Assembly: GCF_054482595.1 (NCBI RefSeq)
Contig: NZ_CM137008.1
Strand: one strand, 5' to 3'
DNA length: 64,000 nt
Shown here: positions 53,809 through 59,502 of the stretch, one piece after another
How positions within the stretch are numbered: position 1 is the first letter of the stretch
Layout: every line of letters begins with the position of its first letter
Translations under genes and position numbers: made by a program
Notes under the pieces: model-generated
What the model was told of the DNA's origin: nothing
Database searches by the model: none
The model's input: only the letters and a program-made list of their open reading frames with translations

Positions 53809-54559
53809 CGTGGAGCTTTAAACACAATTCGTATAATTTATTAACAGTGATTTATTTTTACTCTTCTTTAATTAATCATCATGCTTAAATATTTTTTAGC
53901 ACAAGATTATCGCTTCGCTAACATTTTAGTTTACATTGATTTCCAATTGATAATAAAAAGTTGTTAATAAGTTTATGCGAAAAATAAAAATTGTTGAAAT
54001 ACTCTCCAGCAAATGAATCAAAAATAAACAAATTAATATTTACAAAAAGCAAAAAACTATTTAAGAGAACATCTTTAATTTATTAGCAGAACCCATCAAT
54101 AATGATTTACTTACGACTAAAAAATATCTTACAACAATGTGTTATTGTAAATTAACGGGAATGATATTAAATTTTTATTTTCTACACCACAACTTCATTG
54201 AACGACAAAATGCATATAAAATCAATAAGATAAATAATAAAGACAACCTCATAAGAAATAACGTCAAATATCTCAAAACTACTAAACATCACTAAAACAT
54301 TAGACGTAACACACATCCCCCACGCCCTGTAATTCATAGCTTTTATATTTATTTTTTCACATCAATGTAGATAAAAACACGCATTAAAAATGGCTTGTAG
54401 AAAAGCAGCACAATAAATAGTTCATATTTAGTCTATTGCGTAGAACTACTATTCAAAAAATCTTATTAATGAGATAATGAGATTACATCGATAACGTTCT
54501 GATTGCAGGCATACTTATCTGGGTGTGCCTCTCTTTTTTACAACTGTACACGGTGGCGT

Positions 54560-55123
54560 ATGACGAGAAAATATCTCACACAGGATGAAGTCTACAGGCT
54601 GATGGATGCAGCCCAGAGCATGTCCTTTCCTGAAAGAAATCGCTGTCTAATTATGATGGCTTTCATTCACGGTTTTAGGGCCAGTGAACTTCTTGATTTA
54701 CGTTTATCCGATATTGATGCATCAGGAAAACAACTTAATATTCGGCGGATTAAAAATGGTTTCTCGACAACACATCCTCTTCTTCCTGATGAATATAATT
54801 TGATCAAGTTGTGGCTTAAGCAGAGGAAGTTAATTGAAAACGGAGTTGAAGGAGACTGGCTTTTTCTCTCCCGGAAACGCCGCCCTATCAGCAGACAACA
54901 TTTTTTTTCTATCATTCGTGAGGCTGGAAGACGTGCAGGATTAGCTGTAAAAGCACATCCTCATATGTTACGTCATGCCTGTGGTTTTGCTCTGGCTGAC
55001 AATGGTGTCGATACCCGACTACTTCAGGATTATCTGGGTCATCGAAATATCCAGCATACTGTCAGATACACAGCCAGTAATGCTGCTCGATTTAAAGGGG
55101 TGTGGAAAAAAAAGCCTCGTTAA
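54560..55123 (+). CDS. ipuA: FimB/FimE-family tyrosine site-specific recombinase (IpuA-like)
   Basis: FIHGFRASEL, FSTTHPLL, HPHMLRHACGFALA, LIQDYLGHRNIQHTVRYTA motifs closely parallel FimB/FimE; catalytic R..H..R..Y tetrad recognisable. Confidence 0.8.
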   Translation: MTRKYLTQDEVYRLMDAAQSMSFPERNRCLIMMAFIHGFRASELLDLRLSDIDASGKQLNIRRIKNGFSTTHPLLPDEYNLIKLWLKQRKLIENGVEGDWLFLSRKRRPISRQHFFSIIREAGRRAGLAVKAHPHMLRHACGFALADNGVDTRLLQDYLGHRNIQHTVRYTASNAARFKGVWKKKPR

Positions 55124-55135
55124 AACAGTACCTTC

Positions 55136-55151
55136 TGATTCAAAATGTCAG
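55136..55151. repeat. Left 16-bp inverted repeat of the candidate invertible switch
   Basis: tgattcaaaatgtcag; exact reverse complement at 55399-55414. Confidence 0.8.
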
Positions 55152-56374: not shown

Positions 56375-56401
56375 TGGCGTACTGACATCTGTGAGGGAAG
56401 G

Positions 56402-57163
56402 ATGCGTTTCGTTCTTTTCTGTCCCTCAGGAATCGTACCAGCGCAGTTCGTAGCTCTATCAACCGGTTCTGTCGGCAATGTTACCTGCATCAAAACAGAA
56501 GAGGAGTTACGCAATAAATTGCGGCACAGGCCACAGAGTGTCGTGATATCGGCAGGGCGACCTGCCGAATGCGCTGAAATGTGGTTCCGATTTTATCGGG
56601 ATCACTCATTCGTGGTGGTGTTGTGCGTCGCGCCCTTTTTTCTGCCACCGGATGTGAGTATTTCTGGCGTTCTCAAAAACCTGAGGTTACTGAAACCAGG
56701 AATGTCAGTAGAGCATGTCATCAGTATTGCAAATACCTCTGGTGGGTTTTCAGGGCTGAAACATGCAGAAATTTTGCCAGTTATGGACAGTTACTCTGTC
56801 TTTATGAAAGAGGTGAATAACCGCACAAAGACAATCGTCATGTCAGAACGCTTCCCGGAAAAGCAAAAGAAGGTGTTGTCGTTGCTTCTTGCCGGACACA
56901 GCTGGGAATACAGTGCGCAGTTTCTCAAAACGGGGATAAGACAGATATGGCTTGCCGAGCAGTCGCTAAAAAAGCGTTGGGGAATACCGGACAGCATGTC
57001 ATTGCGGGAAGCCCTGCTGCTGAGCAGCAATAAATTTCACGGTGATGGAAATGCATTGGAAAAAACGAATGCCATGACATTGCGTGAAAACGGAAATACC
57101 AACAGGTATTCCGTGGTGGTAAATGCAGGGACGCAGGCTTTATCTCTGCATAAATATAAATAA
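56402..57163 (+). CDS. Second LuxR-type regulator-like protein (paralog or divergent partner)
   Basis: C-terminal HTH-like segment KKVLSLLLAGHSWEYSAQFLKTGIRQIWLAEQSLKKRWG; same frame as the upstream regulator ORF but separated by several stops. Confidence 0.5.
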   Translation: MRFVLFCPSGIVPAQFVALSTGSVGNVTCIKTEEELRNKLRHRPQSVVISAGRPAECAEMWFRFYRDHSFVVVLCVAPFFLPPDVSISGVLKNLRLLKPGMSVEHVISIANTSGGFSGLKHAEILPVMDSYSVFMKEVNNRTKTIVMSERFPEKQKKVLSLLLAGHSWEYSAQFLKTGIRQIWLAEQSLKKRWGIPDSMSLREALLLSSNKFHGDGNALEKTNAMTLRENGNTNRYSVVVNAGTQALSLHKYK

Positions 57164-57204
57164 GTGGGAAATTGAAATTAGTTACCAGAATGGAGAATTT
57201 CTTC

Positions 57205-59502
57205 ATGAAAAACAATAAGGCATTTTACCGCAGCGCATTAGCGACAGCTATTGTTATGGCTCTTTCTGCACCAGCATTCGCTGCTGATAACGCGGTATCA
57301 ACTACACCGGTTACATTGGATAAAGATAAGACAACTCTGGATCAGGATGTTGTTATTAACGGTGATAAAAAGATTACAGCCGTAACAATTGAAACGTCAG
57401 ATTCAGATAAAGACCTTAATGTTACTTTTGGTGGTCATGATATTACCGCCGCATCAACGGTAAACCAAGATTTCGTTGAAGGTGTAAAAGTTAGCGGTAA
57501 CAAAAATGTTGTGATTAATGCTACAGGCTCCACCATCACAGCTCAAGGTGAAGGTACCTATGTCCGAACTGCAATGGTCATTTCTTCAACAGGCGATGTT
57601 GTTGTTAATGGCGGTAACTTTGTTGCAAAAAATGAAAAAAGTAGTGCGACAGGTATATCTCTGGAAGCGACCACGGGAAATAATTTAACGCTAAATGGTA
57701 CAACCATAAATGCTCAAGGTAATAAGAGTTCCAGCAACGGCTCTACGGCAATTTTTGCTCAAAAGGGTAGCGTATTGAATGGTTTTAACGGTGATGCAAC
57801 CGACAACATTACCCTTGCTGGATCAAATATTATTAATGGCCGGATTGAAACAATACTTATTGCCAAGGAGAATACGGGAACTCATACAGTCAATCTGAAT
57901 ATTAAGGATGACTCAGTAATTGGGGCGGCTAATAATAAACAAACAATTTATGCCTCTGCTTCGGCACAAGGAGCAGGTTCAGCAACGCAAAATTTAAATT
58001 TATCTGTCGCCGATTCAACCATCTACTCTGATATCCATACCCTTTCTGCAAGCGAGAATTCAGCCGGTACCACAACAAATGTAAACATGAACGTTGCCCG
58101 CTCTTACTGGGAAGGTAATGCTTATACCTTCAATAGCGGCGATAAAGCGGGTAGTAAACTGGATATAAATCTTTCCGATGGTTCAGTCTGGAAAGGCAAA
58201 GTTTCAGGGGCAGGAGATGCCAACGTATCTCTGCAAAACGGGTCTGTCTGGAATGTTACGGGATCCTCAACTGTTGATGCTCTGGCAGTAAAAGACAGTG
58301 CGGTTAATATCACGAAGGCTACAGTCAATACTGGCACGTTTGCTTCTCAAAACGGCACGCTGATTGTTGATGCCTCTTCTGAAAACACCCTGGATATCAG
58401 CGGTAAAGCGAGCGGTAACTTGCGTGTTTACAGTGCGGGTTCATTGGATCCTATCAATGAACAAACGGCATTTATTTCTACCGGCAAAGACAGCACTCTA
58501 AAAGCCACAGGCACAACGGAAGGTGGTCTGTATCAATATGACCTGACACACGGAGCTGATGGTAACTTTTATTTCGTAAAAAACACGCATAAAGCATCCA
58601 ACGCCAGCTCCGTGATTCAGGCAATGGCAGCAGCTCCGGCTAACGTTGCTAATCTGCAGGCTGACACTCTCTCAGCCCGTCAGGATGCTGTCCGTCTGAG
58701 CGAAAATGACAAAGGTGGCGTATGGATTCAGTACTTTGGCGGTAAACAGAAACATACCACCGCGGGAAATGCATCCTATGACCTGGATGTAAACGGTGTA
58801 ATGCTGGGTGGTGATACCCGCTTCATGACTGAAGATGGTAGCTGGCTGGCCGGTGTGGCGATGTCTTCTGCGAAAGGTGACATGACCACCATGCAGAGCA
58901 AAGGTGACACTGAAGGTTACAGCTTCCACGCTTACCTGAGCCGCCAGTATAACAACGGTATCTTCATTGATACTGCTGCACAGTTTGGTCATTACAGCAA
59001 CACGGCAGATGTTCGCCTGATGAATGGTGGCGGTACCATCAAAGCTGACTTTAACACCAATGGTTTCGGTGCGATGGTTAAAGGCGGTTACACATGGAAA
59101 GACGGTAATGGCCTGTTTATTCAGCCATATGCCAAACTGTCTGCGCTGACTCTGGAAGGTGTGGATTATCAGCTCAACGGCGTGGACGTTCATTCTGACA
59201 GCTATAACTCTGTGTTGGGTGAGGCCGGTACGCGCGTGGGTTATGACTTCGCTGTGGGCAACGCGAGCGTTAAACCTTATCTGAATCTGGCCGCACTGAA
59301 CGAATTCTCTGATGGCAACAAAGTCCGTCTGGGTGATGAGTCTGTCAATGCCAGCATTGACGGTGCAGCATTCCGCGTGGGCGCAGGTGTACAGGCTGAT
59401 ATCACCAAAAACATGGGAGCATATGCAAGCCTTGACTACACCAAAGGTGACGACATTGAGAACCCGCTACAGGGTGTAGTTGGTATCAATGTGACCTGGT
59501 AA
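57205..59502 (+). CDS. upaE: Autotransporter adhesin (UpaE-like), about 765 aa
   Basis: Signal peptide MKNNKAFYRSALATAIVMALSAPAFA; Gly/Asn/Thr-rich repetitive passenger; C-terminal beta-barrel with aromatic terminus ...GVVGINVTW. Confidence 0.65.
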   Translation: MKNNKAFYRSALATAIVMALSAPAFAADNAVSTTPVTLDKDKTTLDQDVVINGDKKITAVTIETSDSDKDLNVTFGGHDITAASTVNQDFVEGVKVSGNKNVVINATGSTITAQGEGTYVRTAMVISSTGDVVVNGGNFVAKNEKSSATGISLEATTGNNLTLNGTTINAQGNKSSSNGSTAIFAQKGSVLNGFNGDATDNITLAGSNIINGRIETILIAKENTGTHTVNLNIKDDSVIGAANNKQTIYASASAQGAGSATQNLNLSVADSTIYSDIHTLSASENSAGTTTNVNMNVARSYWEGNAYTFNSGDKAGSKLDINLSDGSVWKGKVSGAGDANVSLQNGSVWNVTGSSTVDALAVKDSAVNITKATVNTGTFASQNGTLIVDASSENTLDISGKASGNLRVYSAGSLDPINEQTAFISTGKDSTLKATGTTEGGLYQYDLTHGADGNFYFVKNTHKASNASSVIQAMAAAPANVANLQADTLSARQDAVRLSENDKGGVWIQYFGGKQKHTTAGNASYDLDVNGVMLGGDTRFMTEDGSWLAGVAMSSAKGDMTTMQSKGDTEGYSFHAYLSRQYNNGIFIDTAAQFGHYSNTADVRLMNGGGTIKADFNTNGFGAMVKGGYTWKDGNGLFIQPYAKLSALTLEGVDYQLNGVDVHSDSYNSVLGEAGTRVGYDFAVGNASVKPYLNLAALNEFSDGNKVRLGDESVNASIDGAAFRVGAGVQADITKNMGAYASLDYTKGDDIENPLQGVVGINVTW

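What the first reader, a model, noticed from the sequence alone, without database searches (positions are those of the whole stretch)
54503..59502. Recombinase / invertible switch / LuxR regulator / autotransporter module (ipuA-ipuS-ipuR-upaE-like phase-variation locus)
A FimB/FimE-family tyrosine recombinase gene (54560-55123) is followed 13 bp later by a 279-bp AT-rich segment bounded by perfect 16-bp inverted repeats (tgattcaaaatgtcag at 55136-55151; ctgacattttgaatca at 55399-55414). The segment ends 40 bp before a LuxR-type regulator gene, which is followed by a second regulator-like ORF and an autotransporter adhesin gene. This is the architecture of a fim-type phase switch controlling a surface adhesin. 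It matches what I recall of the ipuS switch described in uropathogenic E. coli, so it is probably described rather than novel, but it is the clearest programmed-variation system in the window.
Basis: partly seen in the sequence, partly recalled or inferred. Interest (0 to 1): 0.8.

Follow-up and report, generated by a model that had tools for sequence, protein, structure and literature searches.

The report
Known FimX/hyxS invertible switch (PAI-X)
This is the already-described E. coli "hyxS" flip-switch: a piece of DNA that the FimX/IpbA recombinase turns around to switch the regulator gene hyxR, and probably the adjacent hyxA and upaB adhesin genes, on or off.

Summary
A 187-aa FimB/FimE-type tyrosine invertase gene (54560-55123) is followed by a 279-bp, 29% GC segment bounded by perfect 16-bp inverted repeats (55136-55151 / 55399-55414). 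A LuxR-type regulator, a second ORF and an autotransporter follow. The repeat is far beyond chance (0 of 1000 shuffles).

The locus was misnamed. It is pathogenicity island PAI-X between betA and ykgH: ipbA (= fimX), the hyxS switch, hyxR, hyxA and hyxB (= upaB). It is not ipuA-ipuS-ipuR-upaE, which lies at argW, has 7-bp repeats and shares only 52% recombinase identity.

hyxS, its 16-bp repeats and FimX-dependent inversion are published. The repeats here are identical to those of CFT073 and EC958.

In 5,426 complete E. coli genomes, 1,780 carry the window's orientation and 15 carry exactly the predicted flipped form. That is direct evidence of inversion at these repeats. The window is most likely in the OFF state, but this is inferred.

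Side observations:
- The right site is a perfect 39-bp palindrome containing a third repeat copy.
- A mainly poultry-associated group of genomes has a precise 272-bp deletion of the switch.
- A translocated second copy has an IS-truncated recombinase gene.
- There are paralogous modules elsewhere, including the Salmonella T1 switch.

Verdict: real, but already known. Low interest.

The parts
53505..59685 (.). PAI-X island between betA (ends 53504) and ykgH (starts 59686)
   Evidence: RefSeq annotation of a 100%-identical genome. GC is 29-49% against 57% in betA. PAI-X = fimX + hyxRAB (PMC3789825).
54560..55123 (+). ipbA (= fimX = hbiF), a tyrosine-type DNA invertase of 187 aa, intact
   Evidence: NCBIfam NF007370 scores 250.8 bits (cut-off 221) and NF007371 scores 232.8 (cut-off 222). 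Catalytic R40, H135, R138 and Y170 are present. One substitution (R124K) relative to CFT073 FimX.
55136..55151 (+). Left inverted repeat (IRL), TGATTCAAAATGTCAG
   Evidence: Invariant in 8 diverse E. coli loci including CFT073 and EC958. Its first 10 nt are the Salmonella T1 switch repeat.
55152..55398 (.). Invertible interior of hyxS (247 bp, AT-rich), in the majority orientation, which is probably OFF
   Evidence: Found exactly reverse-complemented between the same repeats in 15 complete genomes, against 1780 in this orientation.
55399..55414 (-). Right inverted repeat (IRR), CTGACATTTTGAATCA
55392..55430 (.). Perfect 39-bp palindrome enclosing IRR. It includes a third copy of the repeat (55408-55423, 15 of 16 identical to IRL) in direct orientation to IRL.
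   Evidence: I2, 19-nt arms, 100% complementary. 16-nt arms are invariant in all 8 loci. Hairpin dG is -27.4 in this orientation and -17.4 kcal/mol after inversion.
55387..55415 (-). Best sigma-70-like candidate promoter (TTGATT, 17-nt spacer, TG-n-TTTAAT). It points away from hyxR in this orientation. Prediction only.
   Evidence: PWM scan. The strict consensus scan found none inside the switch.
55170..55198 (-). Second candidate promoter (TTGAAT, 17-nt spacer, TG-n-AAGAAT). After inversion it would sit about 70 nt upstream of hyxR, reading into it. Prediction only.
   Evidence: PWM scan. The sequence is invariant in 8 loci.
55454..56248 (+). hyxR, a LuxR-family regulator of 264 aa
   Evidence: Pfam GerE PF00196 at residues 135-181, E = 3.9e-6. 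RefSeq name.
56402..57163 (+). hyxA, 253 aa. Function unknown; possibly a degenerate NarL/FixJ-like regulator lacking the acceptor Asp.
   Evidence: No Pfam or NCBIfam match. Low-confidence AF2 model (pLDDT 54) whose top Foldseek hits are FixJ, StyR, VraR, LiaR, RcsB and NarL, with E down to 4.5e-6.
57205..59502 (+). hyxB = upaB, a type Va autotransporter adhesin of 765 aa
   Evidence: PF03797 at 506-743, E = 3e-47. TIGR01414. Residues 26-489 match the UpaB crystal structure 6BEA, E = 9e-255.
59580..59608 (+). Terminator-like hairpin plus T-run about 80 nt after hyxB. Probable end of the hyxRAB operon.
   Evidence: No terminator-like site in the hyxR-hyxA or hyxA-hyxB intergenic gaps.

Best explanation

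The adjacent gene ipbA (fimX) encodes a FimB/FimE-family tyrosine recombinase. It binds the two recombination sites centred on TGA-T-TCA, synapses them in inverted alignment, and inverts the 247-bp AT-rich interior between the 16-bp repeats. The interior carries the promoter for hyxR. In one orientation hyxR is transcribed, and probably the co-oriented hyxA and hyxB/upaB as well. In the other orientation it is not.

In this window the recombinase is intact and the switch lies in the orientation found in about 99% of sequenced genomes. That is most likely the OFF state.

Shown here: the identity of the locus, the integrity of all parts, and natural occurrence of both orientations with junctions exactly at the repeats.
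Taken from the literature: FimX dependence and promoter control of hyxR.
Inferred: the OFF assignment, the promoter position, and co-transcription of hyxA and hyxB.
For: Identity of the locus:
- 100% identity to genomes annotated ipbA/hyxR/hyxA/hyxB between betA and ykgH.
- IpbA differs by 1 aa from CFT073 FimX and keeps the RHRY residues.
- It passes the invertase subfamily cut-offs.

Repeats:
- The 16-bp repeats are identical to those in CFT073 and EC958.
- This agrees with the published 16-bp hyxS repeats and FimX-only inversion (PMC6083910; 10.1101/494401).

Inversion in nature:
- 1780 genomes carry the window orientation and 15 carry the exact in-silico-inverted sequence as one contiguous match. 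Junctions were verified to the base.
- Two sister isolates differ only by a flip of the interior.

Beyond E. coli:
- The homologous Salmonella switch shares the 10-nt core repeat and was shown experimentally to be an invertible promoter (PMC11294581).
- hyxR inversion was seen under phage selection in strain Mt1B1 (PMC12361893).

OFF inference:
- This is the majority orientation.
- The CFT073 reference has the same orientation, and hyxS is described as locked OFF in CFT073 recombinase-null derivatives (PMC6083910).
- The Salmonella majority orientation is OFF (PMC11294581).
- The best promoter-like sites lie on the minus strand.
Against: No read-level or expression data exist for this strain, so switching here is not shown.

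The strict promoter scan found no promoter inside the switch. The PWM candidates are weak predictions in AT-rich DNA.

The primary hyxS paper (Bateman & Seed 2012) could not be read, so the published promoter position and ON/OFF definition were not checked against these coordinates.

The effect of the R124K substitution on activity is unknown.
Confidence: 0.93

Rival explanations
1. It is the ipuA-ipuS-ipuR-upaE locus of uropathogenic E. coli.
For: Same architecture class: recombinase, short invertible element, LuxR regulator, autotransporter. The recombination-site motif is similar (ACATTTTGA..CAAAATGT). FimX can also invert ipuS (PMC6083910).
Against: - Different chromosomal site: betA-ykgH here, argW-dsdC for ipu.
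- IpbA vs IpuA is 52% identical and vs IpuB 47.5%.
- The regulators align only over the HTH.
- UpaE is 2650 aa, and only its barrel aligns, at 24%.
- ipuS has 7-bp repeats with one inside ipuA (PMC6083910). Here the repeats are 16 bp and both lie outside the CDS.
Confidence: 0.01
2. The switch is a frozen relic in this strain. All parts look intact, but the element no longer inverts, for example because R124K or missing host factors inactivate IpbA. hyxR would then be permanently OFF.
For: More than 99% of assemblies share one orientation. Decay of the system is common elsewhere: ipbA and hyxR are pseudogenes in O157:H7, and the switch is deleted in at least 52 genomes.
Against: - The catalytic tetrad is intact, and the same IpbA protein accession occurs in many genomes.
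- The repeats are perfect and invariant, while the interior diverges by up to about 7%, which indicates selection on the sites.
- A strong OFF bias is expected for this switch class and is also seen in Salmonella (PMC11294581).
Confidence: 0.05
3. The repeats and the palindrome are not recombination sites. They would be a transcriptional hairpin or terminator, or the ends of a decayed mobile element.
For: The right site folds into a very stable hairpin (-27.4 kcal/mol). The island is AT-rich and horizontally acquired.
Against: - No T-run follows the hairpin on the + strand, and the terminator scan did not call it.
- Genomes with the interior exactly inverted between the repeats exist.
- No transposase is present, and the 16 chance hits elsewhere have no associated recombinase.
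Confidence: 0.01

Closest known systems
hyxS / FimX (IpbA, HbiF) switch of PAI-X in UPEC UTI89, CFT073 and ST131 EC958 (Bateman & Seed 2012, cited in PMC6083910, PMC3789825, 10.1101/494401)
   Same: Same locus. Same gene order between betA and ykgH, identical 16-bp repeats, IpbA 186/187 identical to CFT073 FimX, and the same orientation as the CFT073 and EC958 references.
   Different: Allelic only. The interior is 247 bp rather than 246 bp and is 93-95% identical to the B2-type alleles. One G at 55427 extends the right-site palindrome from 33 to 39 bp.
ipuS / IpuA-IpuB / ipuR-upaE switch of CFT073 (PMC6083910)
   Same: Same kind of system, with a paralogous recombinase (52%). An invertible element lies between the recombinase and a LuxR regulator plus autotransporter. 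The half-site motif is related, and FimX also flips ipuS.
   Different: - 7-bp repeats rather than 16-bp.
- The distal repeat lies inside ipuA, so inversion truncates IpuA. Here both repeats are intergenic.
- argW island.
- Two recombinases, no HyxA-like gene, and a 2650-aa autotransporter.
fimS / FimB-FimE type 1 fimbrial switch
   Same: Same recombinase family (NF007370/NF007371). A promoter-carrying invertible element with short inverted repeats. FimX also acts on fimS (PMC6083910).
   Different: fimS has 9-bp repeats around 314 bp and controls a fimbrial operon. The literature reports poor sequence similarity between the fimS and hyxS sites and no action of FimB or FimE on hyxS (PMC6083910; 10.1101/494401).
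Salmonella T1-antigen switch (STM0716 recombinase; PMC11294581)
   Same: The recombinase is 72% identical. The repeats TGATTCAAAA/TTTTGAATCA are the first 10 nt of the hyxS repeat. A HyxA-like ORF lies downstream (38% identity). The majority orientation is OFF.
   Different: - 269-bp interior with no similarity to hyxS.
- No HyxR and no autotransporter; it controls a glycan biosynthesis cluster.
- The right site is not a perfect palindrome.

Membership tests
hyxS / FimX (IpbA) switch of PAI-X | Recombinase is the FimX/IpbA orthologue | tested here: met
   186/187 identical to CFT073 IpbA. RefSeq names identical DNA ipbA, 'also known as HbiF and FimX'.
hyxS / FimX (IpbA) switch of PAI-X | 16-bp inverted repeats bounding the element between fimX and hyxR | tested here: met
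   Perfect 16-mers at 55136-55151 and 55399-55414, identical to CFT073 and EC958. 16 bp is the published length (PMC6083910).
hyxS / FimX (IpbA) switch of PAI-X | Island fimX-hyxR-hyxA-hyxB inserted between betA and ykgH | tested here: met
   PMC3789825 defines PAI-X as fimX + hyxRAB.
hyxS / FimX (IpbA) switch of PAI-X | The element actually inverts | tested here: met
   Across genomes: 1780 native and 15 exactly inverted. Sister isolates differ only by the flip. Not testable for this particular strain, because no reads are available.
hyxS / FimX (IpbA) switch of PAI-X | Promoter for hyxR lies inside the element; orientation sets hyxR expression | not testable with these tools
   Consensus scan negative. 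The PWM scan gives weak minus-strand candidates. The claim rests on the literature (PMC6083910, PMC8777976).
ipuS / IpuA-IpuR-UpaE switch | Recombinase is IpuA or IpuB | tested here: not met
   52% and 47.5% identity to CFT073 IpuA and IpuB.
ipuS / IpuA-IpuR-UpaE switch | 260-bp element with 7-bp repeats, the distal one inside the recombinase CDS | tested here: not met
   16-bp repeats. The left one starts 12 nt after the ipbA stop codon, in contrast to PMC6083910.
ipuS / IpuA-IpuR-UpaE switch | argW island context, with ipuR and upaE downstream | tested here: not met
   betA-ykgH context. HyxR vs IpuR aligns over the HTH only, and HyxB vs UpaE over the barrel only.
FimB/FimE-class tyrosine DNA invertase | Family HMM above the curated cut-off, and the R-H-R-Y catalytic residues | tested here: met
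   NF007370 scores 250.8 (cut-off 221). R40, H135, R138 and Y170 present.
LuxR/GerE-type regulator (HyxR) | C-terminal GerE helix-turn-helix | tested here: met
   PF00196 at residues 135-181, E = 3.9e-6.
LuxR/NarL-FixJ-type regulator (HyxA) | Detectable receiver and/or GerE domains | tested here: inconclusive
   No Pfam or NCBIfam hit for any family member. hhalign against the HyxR family aligns the HTH register but gives E = 0.23. The low-confidence AF2 model (pLDDT 54) hits full-length FixJ, StyR, RcsB and NarL at E = 4.5e-6 to 1e-3, with TM only 0.31-0.37.
Type Va autotransporter (HyxB = UpaB) | C-terminal beta-barrel translocator and UpaB passenger domain | tested here: met
   PF03797 E = 3e-47. 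TIGR01414. 6BEA UpaB E = 9e-255.

The most novel reading that the evidence does not exclude
The right-hand recombination site of hyxS is a perfect palindrome. Its orientation is defined by a single central base (TGA-A/T-TCA). FimX could therefore occasionally synapse it with the left site in direct alignment and excise the whole switch. That would give a third, irreversible 'deleted' state besides ON and OFF.

The precise 272-bp deletion found in at least 52 mostly poultry-associated genomes has a junction that joins the outer flank of the left site to the third repeat copy. It could be the footprint of such an excision.
Probability: 0.2. Interest if true: 0.35.

Novelty: already known. Interest (0 to 1): 0.15.

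Why it matters
It matters little as a discovery. hyxS, FimX, HyxR and UpaB have been characterised since 2012, and RefSeq annotates the genes by name.

The value of this check is a corrected label: hyxS/FimX rather than ipuS/IpuA. The two systems have different recombinase specificity, different regulons and different reported phenotypes. hyxS has been linked to nitrosative-stress tolerance, macrophage survival, O-antigen chain length and transient phage resistance. ipuS has been linked to motility and kidney colonisation.

The census of 5,426 genomes gives a quantitative picture of switch state, loss and decay that could guide strain choice for experiments.

Tried and rejected
1. Reading the primary hyxS paper and three related papers (PMC3809820, PMC5084626, PMC3749053, PMC3255655): none are held. 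The published promoter position and ON/OFF definition could not be mapped onto the window.

2. Two DNA-pattern scans of one genome per species:
   - The 21-nt palindrome core gave 0 hits.
   - Paired 10-nt cores 245-275 bp apart gave 16 hits, all in unrelated MAGs at about the number expected by chance, and none with an IpbA homologue.
   - The Salmonella repeat shares only the first 10 nt, which explains the miss.

3. Deletion-junction query to count switch-less genomes: the tool joined the two halves in native genomes, so the coverage count was uninformative. The count was instead bracketed as at least 52 single-piece matches and at most 93 (1891 genomes with flanks minus 1798 with the interior).

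4. Apparent inversion without a recombinase (MEI005 vs MEI2A-0323): resolved. These genomes also carry a canonical PAI-X with intact ipbA that can act in trans.

5. Distant HyxA hits P0029 and P0030 turned out to be error-rich E. coli assemblies.

6. HyxA as a paralogue of HyxR: BLASTP and hhalign were not significant.

7. Rfam: no RNA family in 53400-59800.

8. Strict sigma-70 scan: no promoter inside the switch.

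
Full report
**Observation.** The sequence features are exactly as described.
- An ORF at 54560-55123 encodes a 187-aa protein.
- Twelve nucleotides after its stop codon lies TGATTCAAAATGTCAG (55136-55151). Its perfect reverse complement lies at 55399-55414, 39 nt before an ATG at 55454.
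- The 279-bp segment is 29% GC.
- In 1000 dinucleotide-preserving shuffles of the 330-nt intergenic region, the longest inverted repeat was 13 nt, never 16.
- The 12-nt core occurs exactly three times in the 64-kb window, all here.
This supplies a third copy of the repeat in direct orientation to the left one.

**What the locus is.** Megablast against 5,426 complete E. coli genomes finds the 5.2-kb region in 1,926 of them. RefSeq names the genes ipbA ('also known as HbiF and FimX'), hyxR, hyxA and hyxB, between betA and ykgH. This is pathogenicity island PAI-X (fimX + hyxRAB; PMC3789825).
- The recombinase passes the curated cut-offs of both tyrosine-type DNA invertase subfamilies. It keeps R40, H135, R138 and Y170, and differs from CFT073 FimX by one residue.
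- HyxR has a GerE/LuxR HTH domain.
- HyxB has an autotransporter beta-domain, and its passenger domain matches the UpaB crystal structure 6BEA at E = 9e-255. hyxB and upaB are the same gene (PMC3789825).

**Why it is not the ipu locus.** The real ipuA-ipuR-upaE locus of CFT073 was fetched (L005, argW island next to dsdCXA).
- IpbA is 52% identical to IpuA and 47.5% to IpuB.
- HyxR and IpuR align only over 51 residues of the HTH.
- HyxB (765 aa) and UpaE (2650 aa) align only in the barrel, at 24%.
- The switch DNAs share nothing but a related site motif.
- ipuS is 260 bp with 7-bp repeats, the distal one inside ipuA. hyxS has 16-bp repeats (PMC6083910), as here.

The two loci are paralogous systems of one kind.

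**Evidence that the element inverts.** I built the in-silico inverted form (interior 55152-55398 reverse-complemented) and searched both forms.
- 1,780 genomes carry the window's orientation.
- 15 carry the inverted form as one contiguous full-length match. A genome in the wrong orientation can cover only about 57% of the query.
- Base-level inspection of three inverted loci shows junctions exactly at the repeats.
- The 16-mers are invariant in eight diverse loci, including CFT073 and EC958, where FimX-dependent inversion was shown experimentally (PMC6083910; 10.1101/494401). The interior diverges by up to about 7%.
- Two sister isolates, MEI005 and MEI2A-0323, have identical flanks over more than 3 kb and an interior that is an exact flip apart from one SNP.

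**Site anatomy.** When both sites are oriented on the core TGA-T-TCAAAA, each is an imperfect palindrome, as expected for a tyrosine-recombinase core site with two inverted binding arms.
- The left site has 11 of 20 symmetric positions. The right site has 19 of 19.
- Only the central base is asymmetric, so it alone defines the right site's orientation.
- Arms of 16 nt are conserved in all E. coli loci examined. A G at 55427 extends them to 19 nt in this allele.
- Inversion changes the inner arm, so the right-site hairpin drops from -27.4 to -17.4 kcal/mol.
- The Salmonella T1-antigen switch has a recombinase 72% identical to IpbA. Its repeats are TGATTCAAAA/TTTTGAATCA, the first 10 nt of the hyxS repeat, around a 269-bp interior unrelated in sequence. 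This matches PMC11294581.
- A further paralogous module on contigs labelled E. coli has 18-nt repeats that differ from hyxS at one base. It contains a recombinase (81% identity), a HyxR-like ORF (51%), a HyxA-like ORF (44%) and an autotransporter whose C-terminal ~425 aa (including the beta-domain) are 73% identical to HyxB. It is absent from all 5,426 complete genomes.

**How it most likely works.** IpbA/FimX inverts the 247-bp interior, which carries the hyxR promoter. One orientation transcribes hyxR and the other does not (literature: PMC6083910, PMC8777976).

hyxA and hyxB follow in the same direction. No terminator-like site lies in the intergenic gaps, and there is one about 80 nt after hyxB. 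This is consistent with the 'hyxRAB operon' of the literature (PMC11294581, PMC12922286), but co-transcription is inferred.

The window is probably OFF, for four reasons:
- It has the orientation of more than 99% of assemblies and of the CFT073 and EC958 references.
- hyxS is described as locked OFF in CFT073 recombinase-null derivatives (PMC6083910).
- The homologous Salmonella switch is OFF in nearly all GenBank entries (PMC11294581).
- The best sigma-70-like candidates lie on the minus strand. These are weak predictions, and the strict scan found none.

A low-confidence AF2 model (pLDDT 54) has a (beta-alpha)5 N-terminal half followed by four helices. Its top 25 Foldseek hits are almost all full-length NarL/FixJ-type response regulators. 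The residues after predicted strand 3 are an invariant S-x-G-R-P rather than an Asp. If HyxA is a regulator, it is therefore a pseudo-receiver type. I rate this as inconclusive.

**Natural variation noticed.**
- At least 52 genomes, and at most about 93, are mostly poultry isolates. They are essentially identical across 1.6 kb and carry a precise 272-bp deletion. The junction CTTCTGA-A-TCAAAATGTCAGG joins the outer flank of the left site to the third repeat copy. This is probably one ancestral event. It is compatible with either FimX-mediated excision or slippage between direct repeats.
- Seven genomes carry a translocated ipbA'-hyxS-hyxRAB-ykgH copy in a tRNA-Phe island, with ipbA truncated by ISEc8. 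At least MEI005 also has a canonical PAI-X with intact ipbA, and the place counts suggest 2018-10-2CC does too. This explains flipping of the second copy in trans. Four dog isolates have only the truncated copy, and all four are in the inverted orientation.
- In O157:H7 both ipbA and hyxR are pseudogenes.

**Verdict.** The feature is real and correctly observed. It belongs to a well-characterised, named system, so it is already known.

Noticed in passing
window 55392-55430: The right recombination site is a perfect 39-bp palindrome (19-nt arms and 1 central base). It contains a third copy of the repeat (55408-55423, 15 of 16 identical to IRL) in direct orientation to IRL. Arms of 16 nt are invariant in 8 E. 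coli loci. The perfect palindrome is absent from the Salmonella and 'module 3' switches.
   Followed up: yes
L003 1640-1680 (NZ_CM125665.1); corresponds to window 55136-55423: A precise 272-bp deletion of the whole switch, joining the outer flank of IRL to the third repeat copy. It occurs in at least 52 (at most about 93) complete genomes, mostly poultry/APEC isolates, that are identical over 1.6 kb. ipbA and hyxR remain intact and lie 58 nt apart.
   Followed up: partly
L013 13104-18445 (NZ_CP071259.1 931103-936444); also L002, L011, L012: A second, translocated copy of ipbA'-hyxS-hyxRAB-ykgH in a tRNA-Phe-associated island, among IS66, IS21, IS1 and BREX remnants. ISEc8 has truncated ipbA to its last 114 nt. 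It is present in 7 genomes. MEI005 has it inverted and its sister MEI2A-0323 has it native. MEI005 also has a canonical island with intact ipbA (L015).
   Followed up: yes
hits H41, H43, H44, H45 (RM14721, Eco_24-2013, QDFD216, D53-1): Four dog-associated genomes appear to carry only the IS-truncated copy, with no other ipbA 3' end. All four have the switch in the inverted orientation. They are candidates for a naturally locked, possibly ON, state.
   Followed up: partly
L009 870-2496 (O157:H7 Z1486): In O157:H7 the island is decayed. ipbA is frameshifted and truncated, and hyxR has an internal stop, while the switch and its repeats are intact.
   Followed up: no
L010 771-1382 (APEC O18): A 1-nt insertion near codon 182 of ipbA shifts the frame, so the protein (204 aa) reads through the left repeat into the switch. 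This genome has the switch inverted.
   Followed up: no
L037-L039 6001-11300: A paralogous module next to acetoin (budR/A/B-like) genes. It contains a recombinase (81% identical to IpbA), 18-nt inverted repeats TGGTTCAAAATGTCAGAT around a 200- or 241-bp interior, a HyxR-like ORF (51%), a HyxA-like ORF (44%) and a 900-aa autotransporter whose C-terminal ~425 aa are 73% identical to HyxB. No match in the 5,426 complete E. coli genomes.
   Followed up: partly
L034 4578-4866: The Salmonella T1-antigen switch has 10-nt repeats TGATTCAAAA/TTTTGAATCA, equal to the first 10 nt of the hyxS repeat, around a 269-bp interior with no similarity to hyxS. A HyxA-like ORF (38% identity) lies downstream, but there is no HyxR or autotransporter.
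   Followed up: yes
window 54507-54540: A terminator-like hairpin (10-bp stem) with a T-run lies immediately upstream of the ipbA start codon. It may insulate ipbA from read-through from betA.
   Followed up: no
window 55250-55330: The centre of the switch is the most variable part. The interior is only 90-95% identical in 1,036 genomes, while the flanks are 95-99% identical. The outer roughly 100 bp at each end of the switch are almost invariant.
   Followed up: no
window 56402-57163: HyxA has no family assignment, but a low-confidence model resembles full-length NarL/FixJ response regulators. The predicted acceptor position carries an invariant S-x-G-R-P instead of Asp.
   Followed up: partly
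hit H11 (NZ_AP022540.1, strain THO-010): An IS2 insertion lies within the otherwise 100%-identical ipbA-hyxB region.
   Followed up: no
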